In this document: positions 1-16,731 of the stretch, piece after piece | Layout of the letters: every line of letters begins with the position of its first letter | Position numbering within the stretch: the stretch's first letter is position 1 | Assembly: GCA_019358935.1 (NCBI GenBank) | Contig: JAHHIK010000145.1 | Location: forward strand, 1-16,972 | DNA length: 16,972 bases | Reading direction: 5' to 3' | Source of the DNA: Tolypothrix carrinoi HA7290-LM1 | Lineage (GTDB): Bacteria > Cyanobacteriota > Cyanobacteriia > Cyanobacteriales > Nostocaceae | Translations under genes and position numbers: made by a program | Notes under the pieces: generated by a model | The model's database searches: none | Told to the model about the DNA's origin: nothing | The model's input: the letters and a program-made list of their open reading frames with translations, nothing else

Positions 1-33
1 GTCGCTGATTATTCTTTCTTGGTTTGGTTTCAT
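1..33 (-). CDS. Possible 5' start of a gene running out of the window (MKPNQERIISD...)
   Basis: ATG at 33 on the minus strand with an open frame to the window edge, downstream of the 93-130 hairpin; only 11 codons visible. Confidence 0.3.
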   Translation of the reverse strand, partial: MKPNQERIISD

Positions 34-92
34 GACAAAGGGTTGATATATTACCTTGGAGTGCGATCGCACTTCACGGCGTCGCACCCATC

Positions 93-130
93 AAAAAGCC
101 GTCCCTACCGCAAAAGGCGGGGACGGCTTT
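93..130 (-). terminator. Rho-independent terminator
   Basis: AAAGCCGTCC (95-104) pairs with GGACGGCTTT (121-130), with an inner CCGC/GCGG stem. On the minus strand it is followed by TTTTT and starts at the stop of the 129-308 ORF. Confidence 0.7.
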
Positions 131-308
131 ATTCGTTTTGTTCAGATTGTTCTTCTAGCTGTTTTTGAAGAGTTTCAAATTCCTGAATCCGAAACTCAAG
201 CTTTTCTGCTTCATCTTCAAGGCGCTTAATCTCAGCTTTTTTTACTGCCACCTGTTCACGTCTTGCTGCCACCTGATCGCGGTAATCCCTTATCAGTTGG
301 CGAACCAT
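129..308 (-). CDS. Small coiled-coil hypothetical protein, 59 aa (MVRQLIRDYRDQVAARREQVAVKKAEIKRLEDEAEKLEFRIQEFETLQKQLEEQSEQNE)
   Basis: Hand translation; below the ORF-track cutoff. E/K/Q-rich heptad pattern, GGGGGA directly upstream, terminator directly downstream. Confidence 0.6.
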   Translation of the reverse strand: MVRQLIRDYRDQVAARREQVAVKKAEIKRLEDEAEKLEFRIQEFETLQKQLEEQSEQNE

Positions 309-474
309 TCCCCCATCATCTGACGTTCCGGAGCTGAAGATACAGCAGATTGCGTGCGATTTGCTCTATAAGTTCGCTCCGACTGATTCCGAGAGATTTC
401 GCTCTCGCATCTAGCATCTCTACTCCTTCCGGAGTGAGTGTAAGTGTAAAATCTTTTTTCCTCTGTCCGTGAAC
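293..474 (-). pseudogene. Ribbon-helix-helix (CopG-like) regulator, 5'-truncated and probably frameshifted
   Basis: An unlisted frame reads VHGQRKKDFTLTLTPEGVEMLDARAKSLGISRSELIEQIAR (beta strand, helix, G-I-S-R-S-E helix). No start codon before the upstream in-frame stop. The probable tail (QSAVSSAPERQMMGEWFAN*) is in another frame. Confidence 0.6.
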
Positions 475-486
475 TAAGGAATAAAT

Positions 487-1004
487 ATGGGAATCTTGGC
501 ACGTATCACCTCTGGCGGCAAGTCCTCCAACAAGAGCAATAACTCTTCAGGGCTTGCTAATGGCGACCACGCCAGCGATAAAAATCGGGTGCTATCCCCG
601 ACAGATCCAACTGTCATTAACCCACTGAACGCGGGAAGCTGGGAAACTGTGAGAACAGCACCAGTCAATGATACACCACGTTATTTCAATAAAACTGAAG
701 CTGACAGCTTGAAAAAGCGGGAGCATCCCAAAAAGCACAAGAGGCGAAACAAGCCAAACGCGCTTACAAGTCACTGAAAAAACTGGAACAATCTGACGCA
801 GAAGTTCACACCGCCCATCGTGGCTACATTCGAGGTGTTGCTGATAGCGAATTGACCAAAAAGCGTTCCGACGTAAAAACAGCCCGCGCCTTGCACACCC
901 AACGTCCCGAATACGCCAAACTCGGTATCGGTTTAGACCGTGCTGACAATTCAGCGCAGCGCCGGATTGAGGAGTTAAAAGCCAAGATCAAGGATAAATA
1001 CTAA
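487..1004 (+). pseudogene. Frameshifted hypothetical protein of a mobile element (about 172 aa if repaired)
   Basis: AAGGA RBS before ATG 487. After about 715-722 another frame continues ASQKAQEAKQAKRAYKSLKKLEQ...IEELKAKIKDKY* and ends in TAATG, coupled to the ATG at 1004. Confidence 0.65.
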
Positions 1005-1276
1005 TGGCAAAGGCGGTACACCTGGGAGCCTGGTTTCTCTGTGGCTGTATCGCCTCTAGCTTTATCGCTTGGCTAGGGGCACTGCATCCTGCTTTATTCC
1101 GGGTGATGTGGGTTGTGTATATTGTTGCAGCTTTCTCGCTGGTGCTAGCACTATTTACCGATGATGCTGTTAGACCGTTTTTCAAGTTATCCGAGCCGGA
1201 TTACTACGCGCTCAGTATGGCGATCGCTGGCTCGTTGCTCCTAGGAGGCATCAAGTCATGGTTGATCGCTGGGTAA
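1004..1276 (+). CDS. Small multi-pass membrane protein, 90 aa
   Basis: Three hydrophobic segments; TAATG coupling upstream; overlaps the next start at 1258, which is preceded by GGAGG. Confidence 0.65.
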   Translation: MAKAVHLGAWFLCGCIASSFIAWLGALHPALFRVMWVVYIVAAFSLVLALFTDDAVRPFFKLSEPDYYALSMAIAGSLLLGGIKSWLIAG

Positions 1277-1798
1277 AATCCAACTGCTTGCTAGCTAGTG
1301 CTCTAGCGTTTTGGTTGGCTGCACTATCTCCCCTGCCAAAAATCGGTAAGGGCATTTCCTACAGTTTGGCTCTAGTTGCGGTGGTGCAACTCATCAACGA
1401 GTCGCGACGGCGCTCTGATCGCTGATGCTCGGCTTGCTGCATTGCAAGCCATGAACCAGGAACTAGAGCAAGTAGAAATCGCGCTGCACACCCAGCAACA
1501 AGAGCAAGCGCTGTATGAAATTTACGGCGCTGCACCAACTTACACAGAGGAAGTCAGAAGCGAGTTAACCAAATCCCTGGAACACTTGTATGCAGAGGAC
1601 AGCGCAAAAAACATAAGCCAAACTTCCACTGACACTTCCCAAAAAATCCTGTATTTAGCGGTGAAAGCTTTGATGGAAACTGGTTGCAACGAGACTTACA
1701 TCATTGAAAAGGTTCTCAAAAAAAGAGGGCGTAATTGGGGCGAGGGTAATAGGATGCTGCAAGAGCTATTGCAGCAGGGGCAACAAAACGAATGGTAA
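1258..1798 (+). pseudogene. Frameshifted membrane-anchored coiled-coil protein
   Basis: ATG 1258 gives MVDRWVKSNCLLASALAFWLAALSPLPKIGKGISYSLALVAVVQLINESRR (two hydrophobic helices). Near 1405-1415 it shifts into the listed 1376-1798 frame (LIADARLAALQAMNQELEQ...QQNEW*). Confidence 0.6.
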
Positions 1799-1831
1799 TT
1801 TTGACGCGATCGCGCGGGCGTGTGTGCAGGC

Positions 1832-1908
1832 GTGCGATCGCGCATATCCGCCTTCTTCTGCAAAGCTACTATTTAAAGAGTTAGTCAAAATGATTTATCT
1901 AGAGTGAA
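1832..1908 (+). repeat. Copy 1 of a diverged 77-bp direct repeat (partner 6357-6433)
   Basis: Ungapped alignment by hand gives 59/77 identity, and 43/49 over the 3' part. Both copies start at a HIP1 site and end CTAGAGTGAA. Confidence 0.85.
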
Positions 1909-2479
1909 TTCCGATTAATTCACCTTGCTCGTTGAGTATAGCGCCACCACTCATACCTCCAAACGTGCGATTATCATAACTGAGGTCATAACCATCACGC
2001 TGGGAACCTTTAGCATCTACCTTGCCATCTTTCATCCTAAAATCAACATTAGGAGTTACTGATGTCTTTGCCGGAAACCCAGCAACGTAAACTACACTAT
2101 TATTTGTCACTTTATCAGAGTCGCCGATCTTCGCCGTCGTGTATTTTTGATTGCTATTAAATTCCACAACTGCTAAATCCAAACTTTGCAGAGGTTTTAT
2201 ATTCTTGATTTGATAACTTTGTTTATCAGGGGTGATAATTTGTTTTTTCCCCTCCTTCACCACATGACCGGCAGTCAAAACCGTATAAACATTGCCGATT
2301 TGCTTGATAATTATCCCCGAACCTGCAAAGCTGGGATTTTGACTGTCAACAATTTGCACCGTAATTTCTCTGCCAATCTTTTCTACCTCTGTTGCAGACA
2401 GTCCTACAGCTACCTGCGATTGTACCAGCACCATCGATACACCAATTAGCACAGGTGAAAGCGCGTGATAATACTTCAT
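1895..2479 (-). pseudogene. Trypsin-like (S1 family) serine protease with signal peptide, apparently 3'-truncated
   Basis: Triad motifs LTAGHVV, DLAVV and GMSGG. The likely start is ATG 2479 (MKYYHAL...) because the longer ORF start lies inside a REP-like element. The frame ends abruptly at IGIH-SR* inside the 77-bp repeat. Confidence 0.8.
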
Positions 2480-2510
2480 CTTATTTACCCAATTTCTGAT
2501 AAAACCTTTT

Positions 2511-2598
2511 GTAGGGTGCGTTAGGCAAAGCCTAACGCACCGCATTAACCATGACGTGCCTAATTATAGCGGTGCGTTACTGCGTTAACGCACCCTAC
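2511..2598. repeat. REPIN-like doublet of palindromic REP sequences
   Basis: Outer inverted repeats GTAGGGTGCGTTA (2511-2523) and TAACGCACCCTAC (2586-2598). Each half is itself a hairpin (GGTGCGTTAGGC-AAA-GCCTAACGCACC; GGTGCGTTA-ctgcgt-TAACGCACC), with a GTAG terminal tetranucleotide. Confidence 0.8.
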
Positions 2599-2616
2599 GA
2601 TTTTGACTATGATTTT

Positions 2617-3147
2617 TCACCGCTCAGGTTGCAGATTATTCAAATACGTATCAAAATCAATATATATTTGAGTATCATCGTTACTTTGATTCTGAATTTG
2701 TCCAGAGGCTAAAGCACGACGATCAAACAGGCTTTGTACAGCAAGTTTGGCATTAGCACCAGGTTTGAGGGTGAATAACACAGTGCTGCTAGTGCAAACA
2801 TCATTTGTACTCACAACAGCACACACAACAGATTGTTTATTCAGCGTTCCAGTGATGATAGTTTTCAAAGTACCATTGTCATAACTTCTCTGAAATCTCC
2901 GCGATACCTGTTGACAGCGTTGTAGAGGTGTCAAAGAAGAATAAGAATAAACCCAGCGAATCATTGGTACATTTCTCCCATCCTCTCGACGCGCAAATGT
3001 TACAGGTACACCTTTGCTTTGAGCGCAAGAGAACTTTCGGTTGCTAGCATAACTAGGCTGAGGTTGTGCTGTTGTGGTAGTCACAAGCATTGCTAAACCA
3101 CAAATTGCAACATGAGTCAACGTCGGACTGAGTAACTTAAATGCCAT
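2617..3147 (-). CDS. COP23 domain-containing secreted protein
   Basis: Signal peptide, then F.C...GVP.T, PMIRW, TPLQRCQQVSRRFQ, G.LN.Q.VVC, LFTLKPG and terminal YIDFD.YL, the motifs of cyanobacterial COP23 proteins. Confidence 0.85.
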   Translation of the reverse strand: MAFKLLSPTLTHVAICGLAMLVTTTTAQPQPSYASNRKFSCAQSKGVPVTFARREDGRNVPMIRWVYSYSSLTPLQRCQQVSRRFQRSYDNGTLKTIITGTLNKQSVVCAVVSTNDVCTSSTVLFTLKPGANAKLAVQSLFDRRALASGQIQNQSNDDTQIYIDFDTYLNNLQPER

Positions 3148-3307
3148 AAAAAAGCCTATATCTTACTTTTATAGGAATATAAGCGATTACACTGATAAAA
3201 AGCACCATTTCGGTACTATACCTAGATATATTGGTATTTCGTAAATATTAGCAACATTAATTGTGTGCGAAAATCGTCATTAAATAAGGTGATAACTTGC
3301 AGGACTT

Positions 3308-4753
3308 ATGGTGACTGTAATGCTGGGTCAAAAGCTTGGTGGACGCTACCAAATTATTCAACATTTGGGAGAAGGAGCATTTGGAGTTACTTTCGTAGCA
3401 GAAGATATGCAACGACCAGGGAATCCTAAATGCGTTGTCAAGCAGTTTCAACCAAAAAACACAGACCCCCACACCTTACGGGAAGCACGACGGCTTTTTG
3501 ACAACGAAGCCAAAATGCTGGAAAAGCTAGGAACTCATGACCAAATCCCGCGTCTTTTGGCTCATATTGAAGAGAATGAAGAATTTTATTTAGTTCAAGA
3601 ATTTATCGAAGGTCACGACCTTAGTCAAGAAGTGATTTTAGGTCAGAAACTGAGTGAAGCTGTAGTAATTAAACTTTTACAAGATATTTTAGAAGTTTTA
3701 GCCTTTGTCCATCAGCACGAAATTATTCACCGAGATATCAAACCATCAAACATCCGACGGCGCCAAGATGGTAAAATTGTCTTGATTGACTTTGGCGCGG
3801 TCAAACAAATCAGTACCCAAATAGTTAATTCTCAAGGTCAAACGAGTTTTACCGTTGCTATTGGTACTCGTGGTTATATGCCAAGCGAACAAGCCAATCG
3901 TCACCCGCAATTAAGCAGCGATGTCTACGCAGTGGGAATGATTGCTATCCAAGCACTTACAGGAATATTCCCAAGCAATTTGCCAAAAGACTCTCAAGGT
4001 GAAGTTGTTTGGCAAAATCAAGCACAAGTAAGTCAACAGTTAGCAGATATTATAGATAAAATGGTGCGCTATGACTTTCGTCAGCGTTACCAATCAGCAT
4101 CTGAAGCATTACAAGCTTTTGGCACAAAAGTACACAATCAAACAACAGTATTTTCTGAGTCTTCAACAGTCAATTCAACTACGCCAACTCAGCTAGAGCG
4201 ATCGCCTGGTAAATTTATGATAGGATTGGCGATCGCAGCAGTACTTGCAATAAGTATTGGAATATGGTATTTATTTCCTGGTTCTAAACCACCAGAAAAT
4301 TTCTTAACTTATGGAAATTCAAGTTTAGGGATAAAAATCAAATATCCGCAAAGCTGGGAAAGACGAGATATAGATAATCTTATCACTAGCGAAGTAGTTG
4401 CATTTGTGTCTCCCAAACAAAGTAATACAGACAAATTCCAAGAAAAACTGACTATCAGCGTTGAAGATTTTTCCGGGACATTAGAGGATTTTAGCGATAC
4501 ATCTACTAAAGACATCACAAGACATTTGGTAAAAGCTGAAATTAAAAAGCCAAGTGACACAACTCTGGCAAATAAATCAGCCTATCAATTAATTTATACT
4601 GGTAAAGATGGGGAAAAGAATTTAAAAAGTATGCAACTTTTTACTTTAAAAGGTGATAAGGCATATGTAATTACTTACACAGCAGCAATTGATAATTACA
4701 ATGACTTTATCCAAACAGCGCAGACAATGATTAAATCATTTGAAATTCAGTAG
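3308..4753 (+). CDS. Hanks-type Ser/Thr protein kinase with one TM helix and a C-terminal PsbP-like extracytoplasmic domain (start may be 3320)
   Basis: LGEGAFG, VVK, HRDIKPSN, DFG, GTRGYMPSE, SDVYAVG. TM segment FMIGLAIAAVLAISIGIWYLF. IKYPQSW...AYVITYTA...MIKSFEI tail typical of PsbP/DcrB-like folds. Confidence 0.92.
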   Translation: MVTVMLGQKLGGRYQIIQHLGEGAFGVTFVAEDMQRPGNPKCVVKQFQPKNTDPHTLREARRLFDNEAKMLEKLGTHDQIPRLLAHIEENEEFYLVQEFIEGHDLSQEVILGQKLSEAVVIKLLQDILEVLAFVHQHEIIHRDIKPSNIRRRQDGKIVLIDFGAVKQISTQIVNSQGQTSFTVAIGTRGYMPSEQANRHPQLSSDVYAVGMIAIQALTGIFPSNLPKDSQGEVVWQNQAQVSQQLADIIDKMVRYDFRQRYQSASEALQAFGTKVHNQTTVFSESSTVNSTTPTQLERSPGKFMIGLAIAAVLAISIGIWYLFPGSKPPENFLTYGNSSLGIKIKYPQSWERRDIDNLITSEVVAFVSPKQSNTDKFQEKLTISVEDFSGTLEDFSDTSTKDITRHLVKAEIKKPSDTTLANKSAYQLIYTGKDGEKNLKSMQLFTLKGDKAYVITYTAAIDNYNDFIQTAQTMIKSFEIQ

Positions 4754-4778
4754 AGACGTTCCGGTGGAACGTCTCTAC
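4750..4778. repeat. REP-like palindrome GTAGAGACGTTCC-GGT-GGAACGTCTCTAC, possibly acting as terminator
   Basis: Perfect 13-bp arms with a 3-nt loop. Its TAG is the kinase stop codon. Near-identical copies lie at 15702 and 15747. Confidence 0.9.
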
Positions 4779-6514: not shown

Positions 6515-6583
6515 CAGAGCGACGTTATGTTATATCAGAGCGACGTTATGTTATATCAGAGCGACGTTATGTTATATCAGAGC
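6515..6583 (+). repeat. Perfect tandem repeat, 3 x 21 bp (CAGAGCGACGTTATGTTATAT) plus a 6-bp partial unit
   Basis: Identical units start at 6515, 6536 and 6557, then CAGAGC at 6578. Confidence 0.97.
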
Positions 6584-6584
6584 C

Positions 6585-6653
6585 AAAAGCTAGTTTGGGC
6601 TTCACCCCTAAATGATACTATAGAAGAAATTATCCGGCGTTGCGGGCAAGCGA
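6585..6653 (+). pseudogene. Isolated internal fragment of cbiE (duplicate of 7506-7574)
   Basis: 6585-6634 matches 7506-7555 at 48/50. It translates KLVWASPLNDTIEEIIRRCGQA, versus KLIWASPLNDTIKEIISRRGKS in the intact gene. Confidence 0.9.
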
Positions 6654-6662
6654 GATAATGCA

Positions 6663-6938
6663 ATGACTGCTAGAGAACAATTAATTCAAGAAATTGCCCA
6701 AGCACCAGACTTTTTGGTTGAAGAGGTTTTGGACTTTTTGTTATTTTCTAAGCAAAGACGAGAGCAAAACATTAGTGTCTCTGAACCTACTAGTCCACCT
6801 GAACAAAAGAGTAAACCTATTTGGGAAATATTTGAGGAATTCACGAGCATACTTCCAGAGGAAGTAATTTCTCAGCTACCCGTAGACGGTTCAGCACAAG
6901 TTGATCATTATCTTTACGGTACACCAAAGCAAGAATAA
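6663..6938 (+). CDS. Putative antitoxin (DUF2281-like N-terminus, VapB-like C-terminus)
   Basis: EQLIQEI.Q.PD.L.EEVLDFL.F and KPIWE...LP.DGS.QVDHYLYG.PK; acidic; TAATG-coupled to the PIN gene. Confidence 0.8.
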   Translation: MTAREQLIQEIAQAPDFLVEEVLDFLLFSKQRREQNISVSEPTSPPEQKSKPIWEIFEEFTSILPEEVISQLPVDGSAQVDHYLYGTPKQE

Positions 6939-7348
6939 TGAGAACAATTTTTGCCGATACCTTTTATTGGACTGCTTTACTCAATCCAAGGGATGAATGG
7001 CACATAAGGGTTATCAGTTTCAGCAAAAATCTTATCTCAGTTCGTTTAGTTACAACTGATGAGGTGTTAACTGAGTTTCTTAATTTTTTCTCTGCCTATG
7101 ATATGAAAATGCGGCAAAGCGTTATTGAGAGGATTCAAGATATCCTACAAAATGATTATGTGCAGGTTATCCCCCAAAGTCATGACACTTTCATTGCTGG
7201 CTTAGAACTGTACAGACAACGATTTGATAAACAGTATAGTCTCACAGACTGTATTTCTATGCAAACGATGAAGCAATTAGAAATTACTGAAGTGCTAACT
7301 CATGACAGACACTTTAAGCAGGAAGGCTTCAGCATACTATTTGAATGA
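6938..7348 (+). CDS. vapC: Type II toxin, VapC/PIN-domain ribonuclease
   Basis: IFADTFYW, VLTE, YSLTDCIS and LTHDRHF supply the acidic PIN catalytic residues; 136 aa. Confidence 0.92.
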   Translation: MRTIFADTFYWTALLNPRDEWHIRVISFSKNLISVRLVTTDEVLTEFLNFFSAYDMKMRQSVIERIQDILQNDYVQVIPQSHDTFIAGLELYRQRFDKQYSLTDCISMQTMKQLEITEVLTHDRHFKQEGFSILFE

Positions 7349-7360
7349 ACAGGCAACAAA

Positions 7361-8566
7361 ATGCAAAAATGGCTGTCTGTAGTCGGAATTGGTGAAGATG
7401 GAGTTTTGGGGTTAAATTCGGTTGCACGCAGCTTGGTGGAGCAAGCAGAGGTGTTAGTCGGAGGCGATCGCCATCTCTCTATGCTCCCCAAAAGCGACCA
7501 TCGCGAAAAGCTAATTTGGGCTTCACCCCTAAATGATACTATAAAAGAAATTATCTCTCGTCGTGGAAAATCGATTTGTGTTCTCGCTAGTGGCGATCCG
7601 ATGTGTTTTGGCGTTGGGGTAACGCTACTACGACGAATTCCGATTGCAGAGATGACGATTATTCCTAGTCCCTCAGCCTTCAGTCTTGCTTGCGCTCGTT
7701 TGGGATGGTCGTTAACAGAAGTGGACACTTTAAGTTTAGCAGGGCGCGATCCTTCTTTATTACATCCGGTAATTTATCCAAAAGCGCGTCTCCTCATCCT
7801 CAGTGAAGGCAGAAAAACCCCCGCTATTGTCGCCGAAATGTTGGTAAAACGCGGCTTTGGTAAAAGCCAAATTACAGTTTTAGAACGCATGGGAGGAACT
7901 CACGAACGCATCGTTAAGGGTATCGCTGCATCTTGGAATATCACTGAACTTGCCGATTTAAATACGATTGCTGTTGAATGTATTGCAGATTCTTCAGTTG
8001 TACTGCTTCCCCGCACTCCCGGATTACCAGATACAGCATATCATCACGACGGACAACTTACCAAACATGAAGTTAGGGCAATTACCTTAGCTGCACTTGC
8101 ACCCATACCGGGACAATTACTGTGGGATGTAGGTGCGGGTTGTGGTTCGATTGGCATTGAATGGATGCGGAGTGATTATCGTTGTCGAGCGATCGCCATC
8201 GAACAAAATCCATCACGATTGCGATACATTACCGATAATGCCGCTGCTCTGGGTACACCAAATTTGTGTATAATTCCAGGTGAGGCTCCTGCTGCACTTC
8301 AAGATTTAGAAGCACCCGATGCCATATTTATTGGGGGTGGTGCTACAGCAGATGGAATATTTGATATTTGTTGGCGATCGCTAAAATCTGGTGGACGCTT
8401 GGTTGCCAATGCAGTAACTGTCGAGAGCGAACAAAAGCTGCTGCAATGGCACAATCAAGTAGGTGGGACATTAACACGCATCGCAATTCAACGAGCGGAA
8501 CCTGTCGGTAAATTTTTGGGTTGGAAAGCGATGGCGCCTGTAACGCAGTGGGTAGTAGTGAAGTAA
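7361..8566 (+). CDS. cbiET: Bifunctional precorrin-6Y C5,15-methyltransferase (decarboxylating), CbiE-CbiT fusion (CobL)
   Basis: VVGIGEDG, LASGDPM.FGVG, GLPD..Y.HDGQLTK.EVRA, WDVGAGCGSI (SAM-binding), PDAIFIGGG, GGRLVANAVT. Confidence 0.95.
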   Translation: MQKWLSVVGIGEDGVLGLNSVARSLVEQAEVLVGGDRHLSMLPKSDHREKLIWASPLNDTIKEIISRRGKSICVLASGDPMCFGVGVTLLRRIPIAEMTIIPSPSAFSLACARLGWSLTEVDTLSLAGRDPSLLHPVIYPKARLLILSEGRKTPAIVAEMLVKRGFGKSQITVLERMGGTHERIVKGIAASWNITELADLNTIAVECIADSSVVLLPRTPGLPDTAYHHDGQLTKHEVRAITLAALAPIPGQLLWDVGAGCGSIGIEWMRSDYRCRAIAIEQNPSRLRYITDNAAALGTPNLCIIPGEAPAALQDLEAPDAIFIGGGATADGIFDICWRSLKSGGRLVANAVTVESEQKLLQWHNQVGGTLTRIAIQRAEPVGKFLGWKAMAPVTQWVVVK

Positions 8567-8603: not shown

Positions 8604-8828
8604 ATGAACTACCACGACATCATCACAATTGAACCTGGTAAACGCAGCGGTAAACCCTGCATTCGAGGAATGCGAATCACAGTGTACGATATTTTAGAAT
8701 ATCTTGCTAGCGGCATGAGCGAAGAAGAGATTTTGTCAGACTTTTCTGAACTCACCTCAGAAGACATCAAAGCTTGTCTTGCTTTTGCCGCAGATCGCGA
8801 GAAAAAGTTATTCGTGGCATCTCTGTGA
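8604..8828 (+). CDS. DUF433 family antitoxin
   Basis: ITIEPGKRSGKPCIRGMRITVYDILEYLASGMSEEEIL.DF.EL..EDI.ACLAFAA is the canonical DUF433 pattern. Confidence 0.93.
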   Translation: MNYHDIITIEPGKRSGKPCIRGMRITVYDILEYLASGMSEEEILSDFSELTSEDIKACLAFAADREKKLFVASL

Positions 8829-9116
8829 AACTGCTTTTGGACGAAAACCTCTCTGATAGAATCATTTCCCAGATTGTGGATCTGTATCCGAATTCAGTAC
8901 ACCTTAAAACATTGGCACTCATCCATAGTGAGGATGTAATAATTTGGGAATATGCCGGCATCGAATGATTTCATAATCGTTTCTAAAGACTCTGATTTCC
9001 ATCAACGTAGTCTTCTCTACGGTCATCCTCCGAAATTCATCTATCTCCGCATCGGCAATTGTCCAATCACCACAATTGTACAAATATTGCGGAATAAAAT
9101 ATCCAGCCATATATAG
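8825..9116 (+). pseudogene. DUF5615 family PIN-like toxin, frameshifted and probably 3'-truncated
   Basis: GTGA overlap with the DUF433 stop. MKLLLDENLS...DVIIWEYA, a shift near 8958-8965, then NDFIIVSKDSDFHQRSLLYGHPPKFIYLRIGNCPITTIVQILRN and a short tail KISSHI*. Confidence 0.85.
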
Positions 9117-9119
9117 CTA

Positions 9120-9229
9120 GTTTCAATCCTCACCTCCACCGGGAGGGTGTTTCAACCCCTTCTTAGGCAGAATAGAGCCAAAAGAGGATAAGGTTTCAAT
9201 CCTCACCCCCACTGGGAGGGTGTTTCAAC
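9120..9229 (-). CRISPR. Orphan CRISPR mini-array: two 37-bp repeats and one 36-bp spacer
   Basis: Repeats 9120-9156 and 9193-9229 are 35/37 identical. The minus strand reads GTTGAAACACCCTCCCAGTGGGGGTGAGGATTGAAAC, with an internal hairpin and an ATTGAAAC end. Spacer 9157-9192. No cas gene in the window. Confidence 0.78.
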
Positions 9230-9340
9230 CCCTCGGCATCAATCACCTTCGCTATAAGCCTTTATCTTGTTACCTGTGAGGCAACCAAGGTTAAGTTGTT
9301 GCTAGACTGCTTGAGATAGTTGGCTAAAGAGCAAAAATCG

Positions 9341-9922
9341 ATGAAGAGTATTTGCGTCTACTGCGGCTCCAATTTTGGCGATCGCAATACTTATGTTGAG
9401 GCTGCACAAGGTCTAGGTATTGAGATGGCAAAGCGTGGAATTACCCTTGTTTATGGTGGGGGGAATGTAGGTCTAATGGGGGCTGTAGCTGATTCTGTGC
9501 TTGCTGCTGGTGGAAAAGTGATTGGAGTAATTCCGCAAGCCTTAGTTGATAAGGAGGTTGCACACACTGGATTAAGCGATCTTCGAGTTGTTGGATCAAT
9601 GCACGAGCGTAAATCGCTAATGGCTGATCTGGCTGATGCATTTATTGCGCTACCAGGTGGATTAGGAACATTAGAGGAATTTTGCGAAGTTGCAACCTGG
9701 ACTCAACTTGGATTTCATAGAAAAGCTTGTGGACTCTTGAACATTGAGGGGTTTTATAACGGGCTGCTTTCTTTTCTCAACCACGCGACGGAACAGAGGT
9801 TTATCCGCCCTGAACACAGAAGCATTGTTTTAGCAGGGGAAGAACCGGTGGAATTAATTGAAAAGTTGAGTCAATTTGAAGTCCCTACCGTGCATAAGTG
9901 GATTGACCGCGATCGCCAGTAG
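9341..9922 (+). CDS. LOG family (TIGR00730-type) nucleotide phosphoribohydrolase
   Basis: ICVYCGS, LVYGGG.VGLMG, MHERK, PGGLGTLEE. ATG 9341 is preferred over the TTG at 9320. Confidence 0.93.
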   Translation: MKSICVYCGSNFGDRNTYVEAAQGLGIEMAKRGITLVYGGGNVGLMGAVADSVLAAGGKVIGVIPQALVDKEVAHTGLSDLRVVGSMHERKSLMADLADAFIALPGGLGTLEEFCEVATWTQLGFHRKACGLLNIEGFYNGLLSFLNHATEQRFIRPEHRSIVLAGEEPVELIEKLSQFEVPTVHKWIDRDRQ

Positions 9923-10164
9923 CGTAGTCATTGCGAGCAGCACAACAACGCCCGTGAGTAGCAATGGAACAGGAATGTACGCGCTTGCCGAAGATACTTA
10001 CTGTACTAGAGTTTGAGCCGTCGCTCTCAAATCTGTTTATTCCTGTGATAATTACGCCATCATAAGTCAGTTTGGGAACACAGAGCAACAGAGTATTTTG
10101 GTACTGGTTTGAAGAGCGATCGCACCCTAAGCTGTGAGGCTTTTCATTTTCTCATTCAGGCAGA

Positions 10165-10306
10165 GAGGGACAGGGGGGGATGGGGAGACAAGGAGACAAG
10201 GAGAGGGGGAGACAAGGAGAAAATTCACCTCATCCCCTTGTCCCCTTGTCCCCCTTGTCCCCCACTTCCCCACTCCCCCCCTCCCCCCCTCCCCCACTCC
10301 CCCCCA
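10165..10306. repeat. STRR cluster in inverted arrangement (GGAGACAA / CCCCTTGT / CCCCACT units)
   Basis: A G-rich arm followed by a C-rich arm of 7-9-nt units, typical of heterocystous cyanobacteria. Confidence 0.9.
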
Positions 10307-10453
10307 TTCTTCCAACCCTAGCCGAAACAGAATTGGAAATGGCTGAAACTGAAAGTTACACTAGATTAAGAAAACAGTGACTTCAATTCTTGCTAAAAGA
10401 ACAGACATAAAACTAGCGCTCAAGTATGTAGCAGCAGACAAAGGGTAATTATT

Positions 10454-15207: not shown

Positions 15208-16731
15208 CTATCTGGCAATTTCTTCGCATACTATTTGGGCTAATTTTTGCGCTGCGCCGGCTTGGCCTCGAACACTCCGCAATTTCGCTTGAATCGCTGC
15301 CAATTTTTCTGGATGAGCCAAATAATCTAAAACCATCTCCCCCACCTCTTGCGGTTGAAGTTTTCCCACCAATTCCGGGACTATCATTGACTGTGCCCAA
15401 ATATTGGGCCATGCTAATAAACCCTTTCGCCTAAGTACCAACCAGTTAATTAACTTAGCAAAGCTAGAACCAAGCAAAGGCATATTTGCCAAAAGTCCGG
15501 GTAAACCATCCCAAGAACGCATGGCATCAAGTTGTTGCGTTGGTAGCAAAACAATCATCGGCACGCCTAAAGAACCGAGTTCAGCGGTGTTTGCCCCGAC
15601 TGTAGTTAGGCAGATACTGCATTGAGATAATAAATCATAAGCAGGCGTTTTAGTGTATAGTTCTACACTTAAGCCAGTGGCAGTTAAAAGTTCGGAGTCA
15701 GGTAGAGACGTTCCACTGGAACGTCTGTACAAAAGTTCGGAGTTAGGTAGAGACGTTCCACCGGAACGTCTGTACAAAGAAGCATTGCTAAAGCTGAAGG
15801 TTTTTACAAAGGGGTTTTTTTCGGGATCGGCAAAACTAGCTAAAGTTGGTAAATCCAAAGTTGGGGCTACAGGAATGACAAACTTAATTTCCGGTCTTTT
15901 GCTGTGAATGTATTCAGCGATCGCCAACATCAAAGGCACTCCCTGTGACAACTTTGCCGCTTTCGATCCCGGCAAAAGTCCAATCAATTCAATTTGGGGA
16001 GTGGGGAGTGGGGAGTGGGGAGAGGGGGAAGACAAGGGAGAGGGGGGAGACAAGGGAGAGGGGGGAGCAGGGGAAGCAGGGGGAGCAGGGGGAGCAGGGG
16101 AAGCAGGGGAAGCAGGGGAAGAAATTTCCCCTTGTCCCCTTGTCTCCTTGTCCCCTTGTCCTCCTTGTCCCCCTTGTCCCCCTTGTCCTCCTTGTCCTCC
16201 TTGTCCCCTTGTCCCCTTGTCTCCCACCCCCCCTCTCCCACTCCCCCCCGCTTCTACCATCAAGTCGCCGACAACGGTAAATTTATGAGCATATTTCTGG
16301 GGTACGCGGGCTGCTACTTCAGATTTCATTATCCCGAAGCGGTCAATTAAACTGTGCCATCTAGCTTCCCATTCCGCGTAAACAACAGTGCGATAATTCA
16401 GTTTTTTGCCAATTACCACGGGGAAAAATTGATCGCCACCGAGAAAGACTACTACACCGCGACTTCTCCAATCCCAATTTTCAAAAGTCTTTCCCCAAAG
16501 CAAAAACTGCCAAAAATGTTCTGCTGATTGTACTCGATCTACTTCTGGATAAGAACGAGCGATCGCTGCTTCTTTACCAGTAGCATTTGGGCATGGTGAT
16601 AATATAACCGAAATCCTTACCACAGAACGGTCATCGCCCAGTTGTTGCCGCAATGCCTGCACCACTGGACGTACCCAGGTCGTTACCTCCCCAGGACCAT
16701 TTGAAAGTATTAAAATATCAACTTGACTCAT
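15208..16731 (-). CDS. lpxB: Lipid-A-disaccharide synthase-related glycosyltransferase (LpxB-like) with repeat-derived insertions
   Basis: ILILSNGPGE, FTVVGDLM, IGLLPGSK, TTVGANTAEL, WPNIWA...VPEL. Frame intact over 507 aa. Confidence 0.8.
   Translation of the reverse strand: MSQVDILILSNGPGEVTTWVRPVVQALRQQLGDDRSVVRISVILSPCPNATGKEAAIARSYPEVDRVQSAEHFWQFLLWGKTFENWDWRSRGVVVFLGGDQFFPVVIGKKLNYRTVVYAEWEARWHSLIDRFGIMKSEVAARVPQKYAHKFTVVGDLMVEAGGSGRGGVGDKGTRGQGGQGGQGGQGGQGGQGDKETRGQGEISSPASPASPAPPAPPASPAPPSPLSPPSPLSSPSPHSPLPTPQIELIGLLPGSKAAKLSQGVPLMLAIAEYIHSKRPEIKFVIPVAPTLDLPTLASFADPEKNPFVKTFSFSNASLYRRSGGTSLPNSELLYRRSSGTSLPDSELLTATGLSVELYTKTPAYDLLSQCSICLTTVGANTAELGSLGVPMIVLLPTQQLDAMRSWDGLPGLLANMPLLGSSFAKLINWLVLRRKGLLAWPNIWAQSMIVPELVGKLQPQEVGEMVLDYLAHPEKLAAIQAKLRSVRGQAGAAQKLAQIVCEEIAR
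15686..15775. repeat. 2 x 45-bp in-frame tandem duplication, each unit containing a REP-like palindrome
   Basis: Units 15686-15730 and 15731-15775; palindromes at 15702-15730 and 15747-15775. Encodes YRRSGGTSLPNSELL / YRRSSGTSLPDSELL. Confidence 0.92.
15996..16250. repeat. STRR-derived in-frame insertion in the lpxB-like gene
   Basis: GGGGAGT, GGGG(G/A)AGCA and CCCCTTGT / CC(C/T)CCTTGT units encoding (GGQ)5 and PAS/PPS/PLS runs. Confidence 0.92.

What the first reader, a model, noticed from the sequence alone, without database searches (positions are those of the whole stretch)
8604..9290. Orphan single-spacer CRISPR mini-array at the broken end of a DUF433/DUF5615 toxin-antitoxin operon
Seen: two 37-bp repeats (35/37 identical) flank a 36-bp spacer, starting just after the stop of a frameshifted, short DUF5615 toxin. 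The ATTGAAAC end places the array on the minus strand, pointing antisense into the toxin. No cas genes are present in 17 kb. Established: a hairpin followed by an 11-nt tail (here AGGATTGAAAC) resembles Cas5d-processed type I-C repeats, and solitary mini-arrays can act as regulatory or decoy RNAs (CreA, Racr) using Cas proteins in trans. Inference: this is either a functional mini-array coupled to the TA locus, or the leader-proximal stump of a longer array joined to the toxin by a deletion. In the second case 9096-9119 would be a partial second spacer and 9230-9290 the leader.
Basis: partly seen in the sequence, partly recalled or inferred. Interest (0 to 1): 0.72.

Follow-up and report, generated by a model that had tools for sequence, protein, structure and literature searches.

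The report
CRISPR scrap riding a transposon-ended insert
A real two-repeat CRISPR fragment, with no matching Cas genes in its host assembly, sits inside a 950-base foreign insert that splits a bacterial toxin gene; it is likely an inert passenger, probably delivered by a transposon's recombinase, rather than a regulator of the toxin.

Summary
The repeat-spacer-repeat is real (9120-9229, 35/37 identical, minus strand, type I-C architecture). It is neither a deletion stump nor coupled to the toxin-antitoxin pair by design. It lies inside a 950-bp insertion (9098-10047) that splits DUF5615 and duplicates ATAA; the toxin's last 20 codons resume at 10052. Three genomes of the genus hold the empty site. 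The insert is a mosaic: a stub of a multicopy MITE, the array, a LOG-family gene, and the left half of a 240-bp Tn3-derived MITE. That half ends exactly at the arm/6-bp-spacer edge of a palindrome that, in an intact parent transposon, lies between tnpA and a tyrosine recombinase. The host has I-D, III-like and I-B-like cas loci but no I-C genes. The spacer has no target beyond chance. Public contigs from several other studies show the same insert with the same single spacer; its repeats have changed about as much as their neighbours, and one allele has lost half of a repeat. Verdict: old passenger relic (about 0.72). The more interesting side finding is a widespread cyanobacterial Tn3 family with a TnpI-like resolvase whose site may capture cargo.

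The parts
8604..8828 (+). DUF433 gene (putative antitoxin), intact, 74 aa
   Evidence: Pfam PF04255 E 6e-26
8825..9097 (+). DUF5615 (putative toxin) 5' part, with a +1 frameshift near 8957-8963
   Evidence: PF18480 pieces 1-44 and 46-94; alignment to G108 and G117
9094..9097 (+). ATAA, left copy of the 4-bp duplication
   Evidence: empty sites in G117, G108, G109
9098..10047 (.). 950-bp mosaic insertion
9093..9119 (+). Stub of a 103-105-bp multicopy MITE (inner part of its terminal repeat), running up to R1; probably ISAzo13-related
   Evidence: 25 of 27 to copies in G111 and G179; 3-bp target duplications in 7 of 7 copies read; look-alike termini flank an ISAzo13 transposase fragment on own C7
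9120..9156 (-). Repeat R1 (distal); canonical stem has one mismatch
9157..9192 (-). 36-nt spacer, no target found
9193..9229 (-). Repeat R2 (proximal), type I-C-like: 7-bp hairpin plus 11-nt tail
9230..9295 (.). Unassigned: old spacer or leader remnant
   Evidence: no match at E below 8e-4 in 388 family genomes; no likeness to five I-C leaders
9341..9922 (+). LOG-family (TIGR00730) gene, cargo; homology to other copies starts at about 9296
   Evidence: 83-91% DNA identity to scattered family copies; one lies near tnsA/tniQ genes on a plasmid
9949..10051 (+). Left half of a 240-242-bp Tn3-derived MITE: 38-bp IR (9949-9986) to the left arm of the resolution-site core (10039-10051)
10048..10051 (+). 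ATAA, right copy; end of the core arm
10052..10112 (+). DUF5615 3' part (last 20 codons and stop)
   Evidence: 93-96% to relatives; translation

Best explanation
The mini-array lies inside a 950-bp mosaic insertion that splits DUF5615, and it is likely an inert relic of a type I-C array that came in as a passenger. Shown: insertion, ATAA duplication, mosaic make-up, I-C repeat type, no I-C genes in the assembly, one unchanged spacer count across samples. Inferred: in a donor DNA (probably a plasmid) an I-C array was cut down and ended up between two MITEs and a LOG gene. A TnpI-like tyrosine resolvase of the Tn3 family then probably cut at the arm/spacer edge of its own site and at ATAA look-alike half-sites, releasing a circle that entered DUF5615 once (about even odds against plain microhomology joining). 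Without Cas5c, Cas8c and Cas7c no I-C crRNA would be made or loaded, so the array now drifts. Its link to the TA pair is only that the toxin gene tolerated the hit.
For: Empty site in G117, G108 and G109; right junction kept in G111 upstream of the same ftsH. Repeat 33-34/37 identical to arrays L029 and L030, the latter directly after a cas7/csd2 fragment. All 5 arrays found at 6 cyanobacterial I-C loci have 37-nt repeats ending GGATTGAAAC, downstream of cas7 in that orientation. No I-C gene in own genome (99.65% complete): tblastn 0 hits with four proteins while controls ring; csd2 in 0 of 11 genus genomes and 7 of 151 relatives. Spacer: best self-match run 15 versus 14-19 in 12 shuffles; none at cas or TA promoters beyond shuffles; no meaningful phage, plasmid or IMG/VR hit. 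Runs X4, X7, X8 span the array with the same single spacer. In the X7/X8 allele repeats differ at 5 of 74 positions and the rest at 11 of 242, p=0.54. X6 lost 8766 to about 9133, including R1's tail, and has two frameshifts in LOG. Canonical R2 hairpin probability is at most 0.04 in three transcript models. Parent transposon G119:C62: IR, tyrosine recombinase, same core plus direct-repeat arm, tnpA, IR.
Against: No RNA data: expression was not tested. Of six changed repeat positions in X2-X4, X6 (R2 only), X7 and X8, only one falls in a stem or in R2's handle (p 0.09, or 0.16 if 9123-9124 is one event; post hoc). That one (9145) restores a stem pair in X7/X8. R2's handle and the spacer's first 8 nt are unchanged in the alleles read. 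The insert has persisted across strains differing by 2-6% and left a trace in a second species. For the resolvase route: the 6-bp spacers of the three joined sites share no homology, and the host now has no close resolvase homologue (best 29-33%). The assembly has 184 contigs and could miss a plasmid with I-C genes.
Confidence: 0.72

Rival explanations
1. Functional mini-array acting in trans: the host I-D Cas6 and Cascade (or a visiting plasmid I-C system) process it into one guide or decoy against a mobile element, or a regulator.
For: Last 10 nt equal the host I-D repeat's. R1 can fold with an 8-nt tail. Changes mostly avoid stems, R2's handle and the seed. Orphan arrays in Anabaena are processed by remote Cas6 (10.1101/2020.04.14.041012, passages).
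Against: Only 17/37 identical to the host I-D repeat. R2, which must supply the handle, has near-zero probability of the 8-nt-tail fold. No target. No minus-strand promoter-like site upstream of R2. X6 destroyed R1.
Confidence: 0.12
2. Excisable cassette: the resolvase can remove the 950 bp precisely and restore the toxin, so the insert works as a switch.
For: Precise 4-bp direct repeat. G117 has the empty site yet shares the window's frameshift, while a contig of X2 has the insert without the frameshift, so excision or recombination has happened.
Against: No joint 9097 to 10052 in any of four runs laid, contigs only. No recombinase in the insert or close homologue in the genome. The window's allele would stay frameshifted. 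Homologous exchange between strains explains the four combinations. DUF5615 looks intact only in G108 among the five genus loci read base by base.
Confidence: 0.07
3. Same passenger, different entry: the palindrome broke as a cruciform, or transforming DNA was joined, using ATAA as microhomology, with no recombinase involved. (Confidence refers to the entry route only.)
For: No homology in the 6-bp spacers. ATAA is common (0.58% of positions). Most partial MITE copies end outside the core (21 of 33, hand count).
Against: One ATAA of the target is used at both joints. The right joint is exactly the predicted cleavage edge. Other half-copies change sequence at the same edge (G321:C628; G155:C34, G155:C47, G152:C58, the last three related).
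Confidence: 0.4
4. One reading: a native longer array joined to the toxin by deletion, with 9096-9119 as part of a second spacer.
For: The MITE match ends exactly at R1, as a spacer taken from that MITE would (25/27).
Against: Both DUF5615 halves are present and relatives have the uninterrupted site with no array. A spacer from the MITE would have CAA where I-C needs TTC (PAM recalled).
Confidence: 0.04

Closest known systems
Type I-C CRISPR arrays (Cas5d/Cas5c-processed; PMC5965381, passages)
   Same: 37-nt repeat, hairpin plus 11-nt 3' tail, last 12-13 nt identical to cyanobacterial I-C repeats, 34-36-nt spacers
   Different: No cas5c/cas8c/cas7c in the assembly, no recognisable leader, one spacer, R1 stem broken
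Regulatory mini-arrays, CreA/CreR, crlRNA (10.1101/2023.03.03.530964, passages)
   Same: Two repeats around one spacer, next to a toxin-antitoxin pair
   Different: Not in a cas locus, full-length repeats unlike the host's, no partial match to cas or TA promoters
Viral mini-arrays and single repeat units / Racr (PMC11656645, passages; PMC10651486, listing only)
   Same: Array on mobile DNA without cas genes
   Different: Those copy the host repeat and mostly target related viruses; here the repeat is foreign and has no target
TIMEs and TIME-COMP (PMC4133298, PMC13367494, passages)
   Same: About 240 bp, 38-bp IRs, 5-bp duplications, internal resolution site, tied to cargo
   Different: Cyanobacterial, parent has a tyrosine resolvase; only half is in the window, and the insert's ends are not IRs, so it did not arrive by Tn3 transposition
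Tn4430 TnpI/IRS (PMC2847244, PMC7157771, passages)
   Same: Tn3 transposase with tyrosine resolvase; inverted core arms around 6 bp plus a directly repeated arm
   Different: Divergent gene layout, cyanobacterial hosts; joints here are to half-sites with unlike spacers
Heterocyst gene-interrupting elements (PMC4874684, passages)
   Same: Insert with direct repeats inside a gene of a filamentous cyanobacterium
   Different: No xis recombinase inside, 4-bp repeat only, no excision seen

Membership tests
Type I-C CRISPR system | Repeat with hairpin and 11-nt 3' tail | tested here: met
   R2 fold; weak Rfam CRISPR-DR9 match for the sister repeats, below gathering
Type I-C CRISPR system | Repeat family linked to cas7/csd2 | tested here: met
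   L030: 34/37 repeat beside a TIGR02589 fragment and cas3
Type I-C CRISPR system | cas5c, cas8c, cas7c in the genome | tested here: not met
   (one search had no positive control)
Type I-C CRISPR system | Leader and spacer acquisition | tested here: not met
   no likeness to five I-C leaders; same single spacer in X4, X7, X8
Type I-C CRISPR system | Processed crRNA | not testable with these tools
   only DNA-type contigs hold the stretch
Regulatory mini-array (CreA/CreR/crlRNA) | Located in or beside a cas locus whose repeat it resembles | tested here: not met
   host cas loci on C35, C98, C153; 17/37 to the I-D repeat
Regulatory mini-array (CreA/CreR/crlRNA) | Seed-side partial match, with PAM, to a cas or toxin promoter | tested here: not met
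   best runs 4-8 nt, matched or beaten by 6-40 of 40 shuffles
Regulatory mini-array (CreA/CreR/crlRNA) | Conserved by selection | tested here: inconclusive
   5/74 versus 11/242, p=0.54; position bias p 0.09-0.16
Mobile-element mini-array / Racr | Repeat identical to the host's; spacer hits a competing element | tested here: not met
TIME (Tn3-derived MITE), for the full 240-bp element | 38-bp IRs shared with an autonomous Tn3 | tested here: met
   24-31 of 38 between ends; same IR on tnpA elements
TIME (Tn3-derived MITE), for the full 240-bp element | 5-bp target duplication | tested here: inconclusive
   perfect in 2 of 5 copies with both ends read and in the G109 transposon
TnpI/IRS-type resolution system | Tyrosine recombinase beside tnpA, with inverted core arms around 6 bp and a direct-repeat arm | tested here: met
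   G119:C62
TnpI/IRS-type resolution system | Matching spacer between recombining sites | tested here: not met
   spacers of MITE core, MITE stub and target all differ
TnpI/IRS-type resolution system | Enzyme cuts at the arm/spacer edge | not testable with these tools
   6-bp stagger known for TnpI (PMC2847244 passage); assumed here
Heterocyst interruption element | xis recombinase inside the element | tested here: not met
   only LOG is encoded
Dispersed MITE carrying the spacer | Many copies | tested here: not met
   one copy in own genome; whole insert in 0 of 388 other family genomes

The most novel reading that the evidence does not exclude
Cyanobacterial Tn3 elements carry a TnpI-like tyrosine resolvase that doubles as an integron-like capture enzyme: it cuts at ATAA half-sites without spacer homology, circularises neighbouring cargo (here a CRISPR guide unit and LOG) and plants or removes it in chromosomal genes, so the toxin gene is switched by a cassette that carries its own crRNA.
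Probability: 0.1. Interest if true: 0.72.

Novelty: new variant of a known kind. Interest (0 to 1): 0.3.

Why it matters
As a CRISPR finding it is ordinary: an orphan remnant. It warns that a mini-array beside a toxin can be an accident of insertion, and that comparing with the empty site decides this. The by-product is worth more: a Tn3 family with a tyrosine resolvase and a widespread miniature derivative in filamentous cyanobacteria. One survey of 190 Tn3 members listed TnpI in only three (PMC7157771, passage), and my searches found no paper on a cyanobacterial one. If its site captures cargo at half-sites, it is an unrecognised route of gene shuffling that can be tested with one enzyme and one 240-bp site.

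Tried and rejected
Rfam at gathering score on the window: 0 hits. Repeat pattern: 2 of 389 family genomes; GTDB scan gave 3 records, one unrelated in context; metagenomes 1 distant stretch; IMG/VR 0. Spacer against phages and plasmids: only 17-24-nt chance hits, E 1-5; seed-side pattern in IMG/VR 0. Spacers of L029 and L030 had no informative match in held sequence. Promoter scan: 2 sites against 2.8 expected; a terminator-like hairpin over R2 and the spacer depends on a T run that other alleles lack. Type V-K/CAST or array-targeting Tn7 end: rejected, no Tn7-type ends or tns genes seen and the repeat is I-C (PMC11837452 abstract and section 6 read). Integron cassette: the tail proved to be a Tn3 IR. 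Serine resolvase: considered because the central AT is kept in all 21 full cores counted, rejected when the parent showed a tyrosine recombinase and the joint was not at that AT. Assembly artefact: rejected, other studies' contigs span the left junction (X2, X4, X7, X8) and the right one (X4; X2's piece runs only 18 letters past it). Csd1 search had no ringing control and was replaced by tblastn. One row of alignment A1 (G357_IC) had wrong coordinates and was ignored; one search has the right comparison. No paper held two of DUF433, DUF5615, VapC45. Supplements were not read; repeat tables there may already list this repeat.

Full report
Observation. The repeats are at 9120-9156 and 9193-9229, 35 of 37 identical, around a 36-nt spacer. 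Chance is negligible and the repeat is unique in the 7.96-Mb, 184-contig assembly at up to 8 mismatches. The window is all of contig C145. The host is a filamentous cyanobacterium (inferred from named plasmid hits). DUF433 is intact and DUF5615 appears as two Pfam pieces. That this pair is a VapBC-like toxin-antitoxin system is recalled, not tested; a literature search on the domain names found nothing.

The toxin is split by an insertion. DNA searches of 41 relatives showed genus members matching up to 9097 and stopping. Their loci continue directly into sequence matching 10048 onward. The window therefore holds 950 extra bases (9098-10047) with ATAA on both sides, and the last 20 codons of DUF5615 follow at 10052-10112. 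The empty junction is in G117, G108 and G109. G111, another species of the genus, keeps the right junction upstream of the same ftsH but has lost the rest. Of ten other genus genomes, the remaining six gave no 3' part in the loci fetched or were not read there. Public contigs carry the same insert: X4 spans 8700-10087 in one piece, X7 and X8 (one allele, two studies) span the left junction and array, X2 and X3 (one study) hold pieces, and X6 holds a deletion form. X1 may be the source sample and is not counted. The +1 frameshift near 8957-8963 is separate: G117 has it without the insert and a contig of X2 has the insert without it.

The insert is a mosaic. Left: 9093-9119 matches the inner part of the terminal repeat of a 103-105-bp MITE found in 9 of 10 other genus genomes and 27 of 121 relatives, at best 25 of 27, with 3-bp duplications in 7 of 7 copies read. 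Similar termini flank an ISAzo13 transposase fragment in the host. Then the array; then 66 unassigned bases; then a LOG-family gene, 83-91% identical to copies in ten other family genomes, each with other neighbours in the nine loci read and none beside this array. Right: 9949-10051 is the left half of a 240-242-bp element with 38-bp inverted repeats, matched in 62 of 67 genomes pre-selected for a hit. The whole insert was found in none of 388 other family genomes.

The right joint points to a recombinase. The 240-bp element has a central palindrome, two arms around 6 bp, and a third arm in direct repeat. G119:C62 holds an intact parent: IR, a 313-aa tyrosine recombinase, the same core and extra arm, a divergent 1003-aa Tn3 transposase, IR. 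This is the layout of the TnpI/IRS system of Tn4430, which cuts at positions staggered by 6 bp and is relaxed without its accessory sites (PMC2847244, passages). The window's insert ends exactly at the arm/spacer edge, and the target and the left MITE are both broken after the same ATAA. By hand count, 12 of 33 partial copies of at least 80 bp end within the core (positions 116-150 of 242; two contig-end hits dropped), about twice the share expected, though several are kin. G321:C628 and three related copies change sequence right at that edge. Against this route: the three 6-bp spacers are unlike, ATAA is common, and the host has no close resolvase homologue now. I give it about even odds against microhomology joining.

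The repeat is type I-C. Near-identical repeats (33-34 of 37) occur in two short arrays, L029 and L030, the latter directly after a cas7/csd2 fragment with cas3 beyond. At six cyanobacterial I-C loci, all five arrays found have 37-nt repeats ending GGATTGAAAC, placed downstream of cas7 in that orientation; two of them fold as a hairpin with an 11-nt tail and share the last 12-13 nt with R2. Cas5d leaves an 11-nt tag (PMC5965381, passage). The host has a full I-D locus, a type III-like locus on C153 and a cas5/cas7-like locus on C98 (subtype read by eye), with three arrays of other repeats. It has no I-C gene, nor do ten other genus genomes have csd2; 7 of 151 relatives do.

Function is not supported. 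The spacer has no self-target beyond shuffles genome-wide or at cas, TA and LOG promoters, and no hit in phage, plasmid or IMG/VR collections. 9230-9345 does not align to five I-C leaders or the host I-D leader and has no minus-strand promoter-like site. In transcript models the spacer pairs with the repeats and R2's canonical hairpin has probability at most 0.04. No allele has gained a spacer. In X7/X8 the repeats differ at 5 of 74 positions against 11 of 242 elsewhere (p=0.54). X6 has lost R1's tail and changed its stem, and has two frameshifts in LOG; LOG differences listed for X2 and X4 are 4 and 6 amino-acid-changing codons against 3 silent each (the table was cut, 32 of X4's 44 differences shown).

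Results against the relic reading. Changes in the repeats fall mostly in loops and in R1's dispensable tail (1 of 6 in stems or handle, p 0.09-0.16, post hoc, leaving out X6's damage to R1). The change at 9145 restores a stem pair in X7/X8. R2's handle and the first 8 spacer bases are unchanged. The last 10 nt equal the host I-D repeat and R1 can expose an 8-nt tail, and orphan arrays in Anabaena are processed by remote Cas6 (10.1101/2020.04.14.041012, passages). Loop mutability and palindrome correction could give the same pattern without selection. No RNA data were available.

Comparison and verdict. It looks like a regulatory mini-array (10.1101/2023.03.03.530964, passages) or a mobile-element mini-array (PMC11656645, passages) but fails their defining tests. 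The right end is a new TIME-like element (PMC4133298, PMC13367494, passages; neither text mentions cyanobacteria). TnpI was listed for only three Tn3 members in one survey (PMC7157771, passage), and searches for a cyanobacterial one found none (one search gave only the interruption-element survey PMC4874684, passages). The library lacks most subscription papers and ISfinder was not available, so this is weak evidence of novelty. Best reading: an old passenger relic, 0.72. Interest 0.3, mostly for the transposon and its site.

Noticed in passing
L199 (G119:C62) 4-4240: Intact 4.2-kb Tn3-family transposon with a tyrosine resolvase divergent from tnpA and an IRS-like site; its 240-bp miniature is widespread in the family, also on plasmids.
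   Followed up: partly
L159 (G109:C8) 524-3784: A deleted copy of that transposon sits inside a spacer of a CRISPR array (repeat like the host's C153 array), with a 5-bp duplication.
   Followed up: no
L191, L192, L194, L195: Four family-level type I-C loci have cas3 divergent from cas5c-cas8c-cas7c and a leader and array (8-41 repeats) straight after cas7, with no cas1-sized ORF in the stretch read; they may acquire spacers in trans.
   Followed up: no
L029 194-366: Three-repeat array of the same repeat family on a 2.9-kb contig with plasmid-like genes; no csd2 found in the genome handle that holds this array.
   Followed up: partly
L030 2290-2932: Short array after a 5'-truncated cas7/csd2 and beside a split cas3: another decaying I-C locus.
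   Followed up: partly
window 8825-9097 and orthologues: DUF5615 is often dead in this genus: frameshifts in G117, another insert in G109, rearranged in G111, intact in G108.
   Followed up: partly
window 6663-7348: A second two-gene unit with overlapping stop and start that looks like an antitoxin plus PIN toxin by eye; Pfam gave only a weak DUF2281 hit and nothing for the second gene.
   Followed up: partly
window 6515-6653: Three 21-bp tandem copies followed by a 72-bp duplicate (85%) of the 5' part of the cobalamin methyltransferase gene at 7503-7574.
   Followed up: no
window 4750-4778, 15702-15730, 15747-15775: A 29-bp palindromic repeat, once intergenic and twice in frame inside the ORF at 15208-16731, which also holds low-complexity 8-9-bp repeats shared with 10160-10310.
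   Followed up: no
G000:C7 75690-75860 and C96 21611-21739: Host copies of the left-end MITE; the C7 copy has a different, longer interior and abuts an ISAzo13 element.
   Followed up: partly
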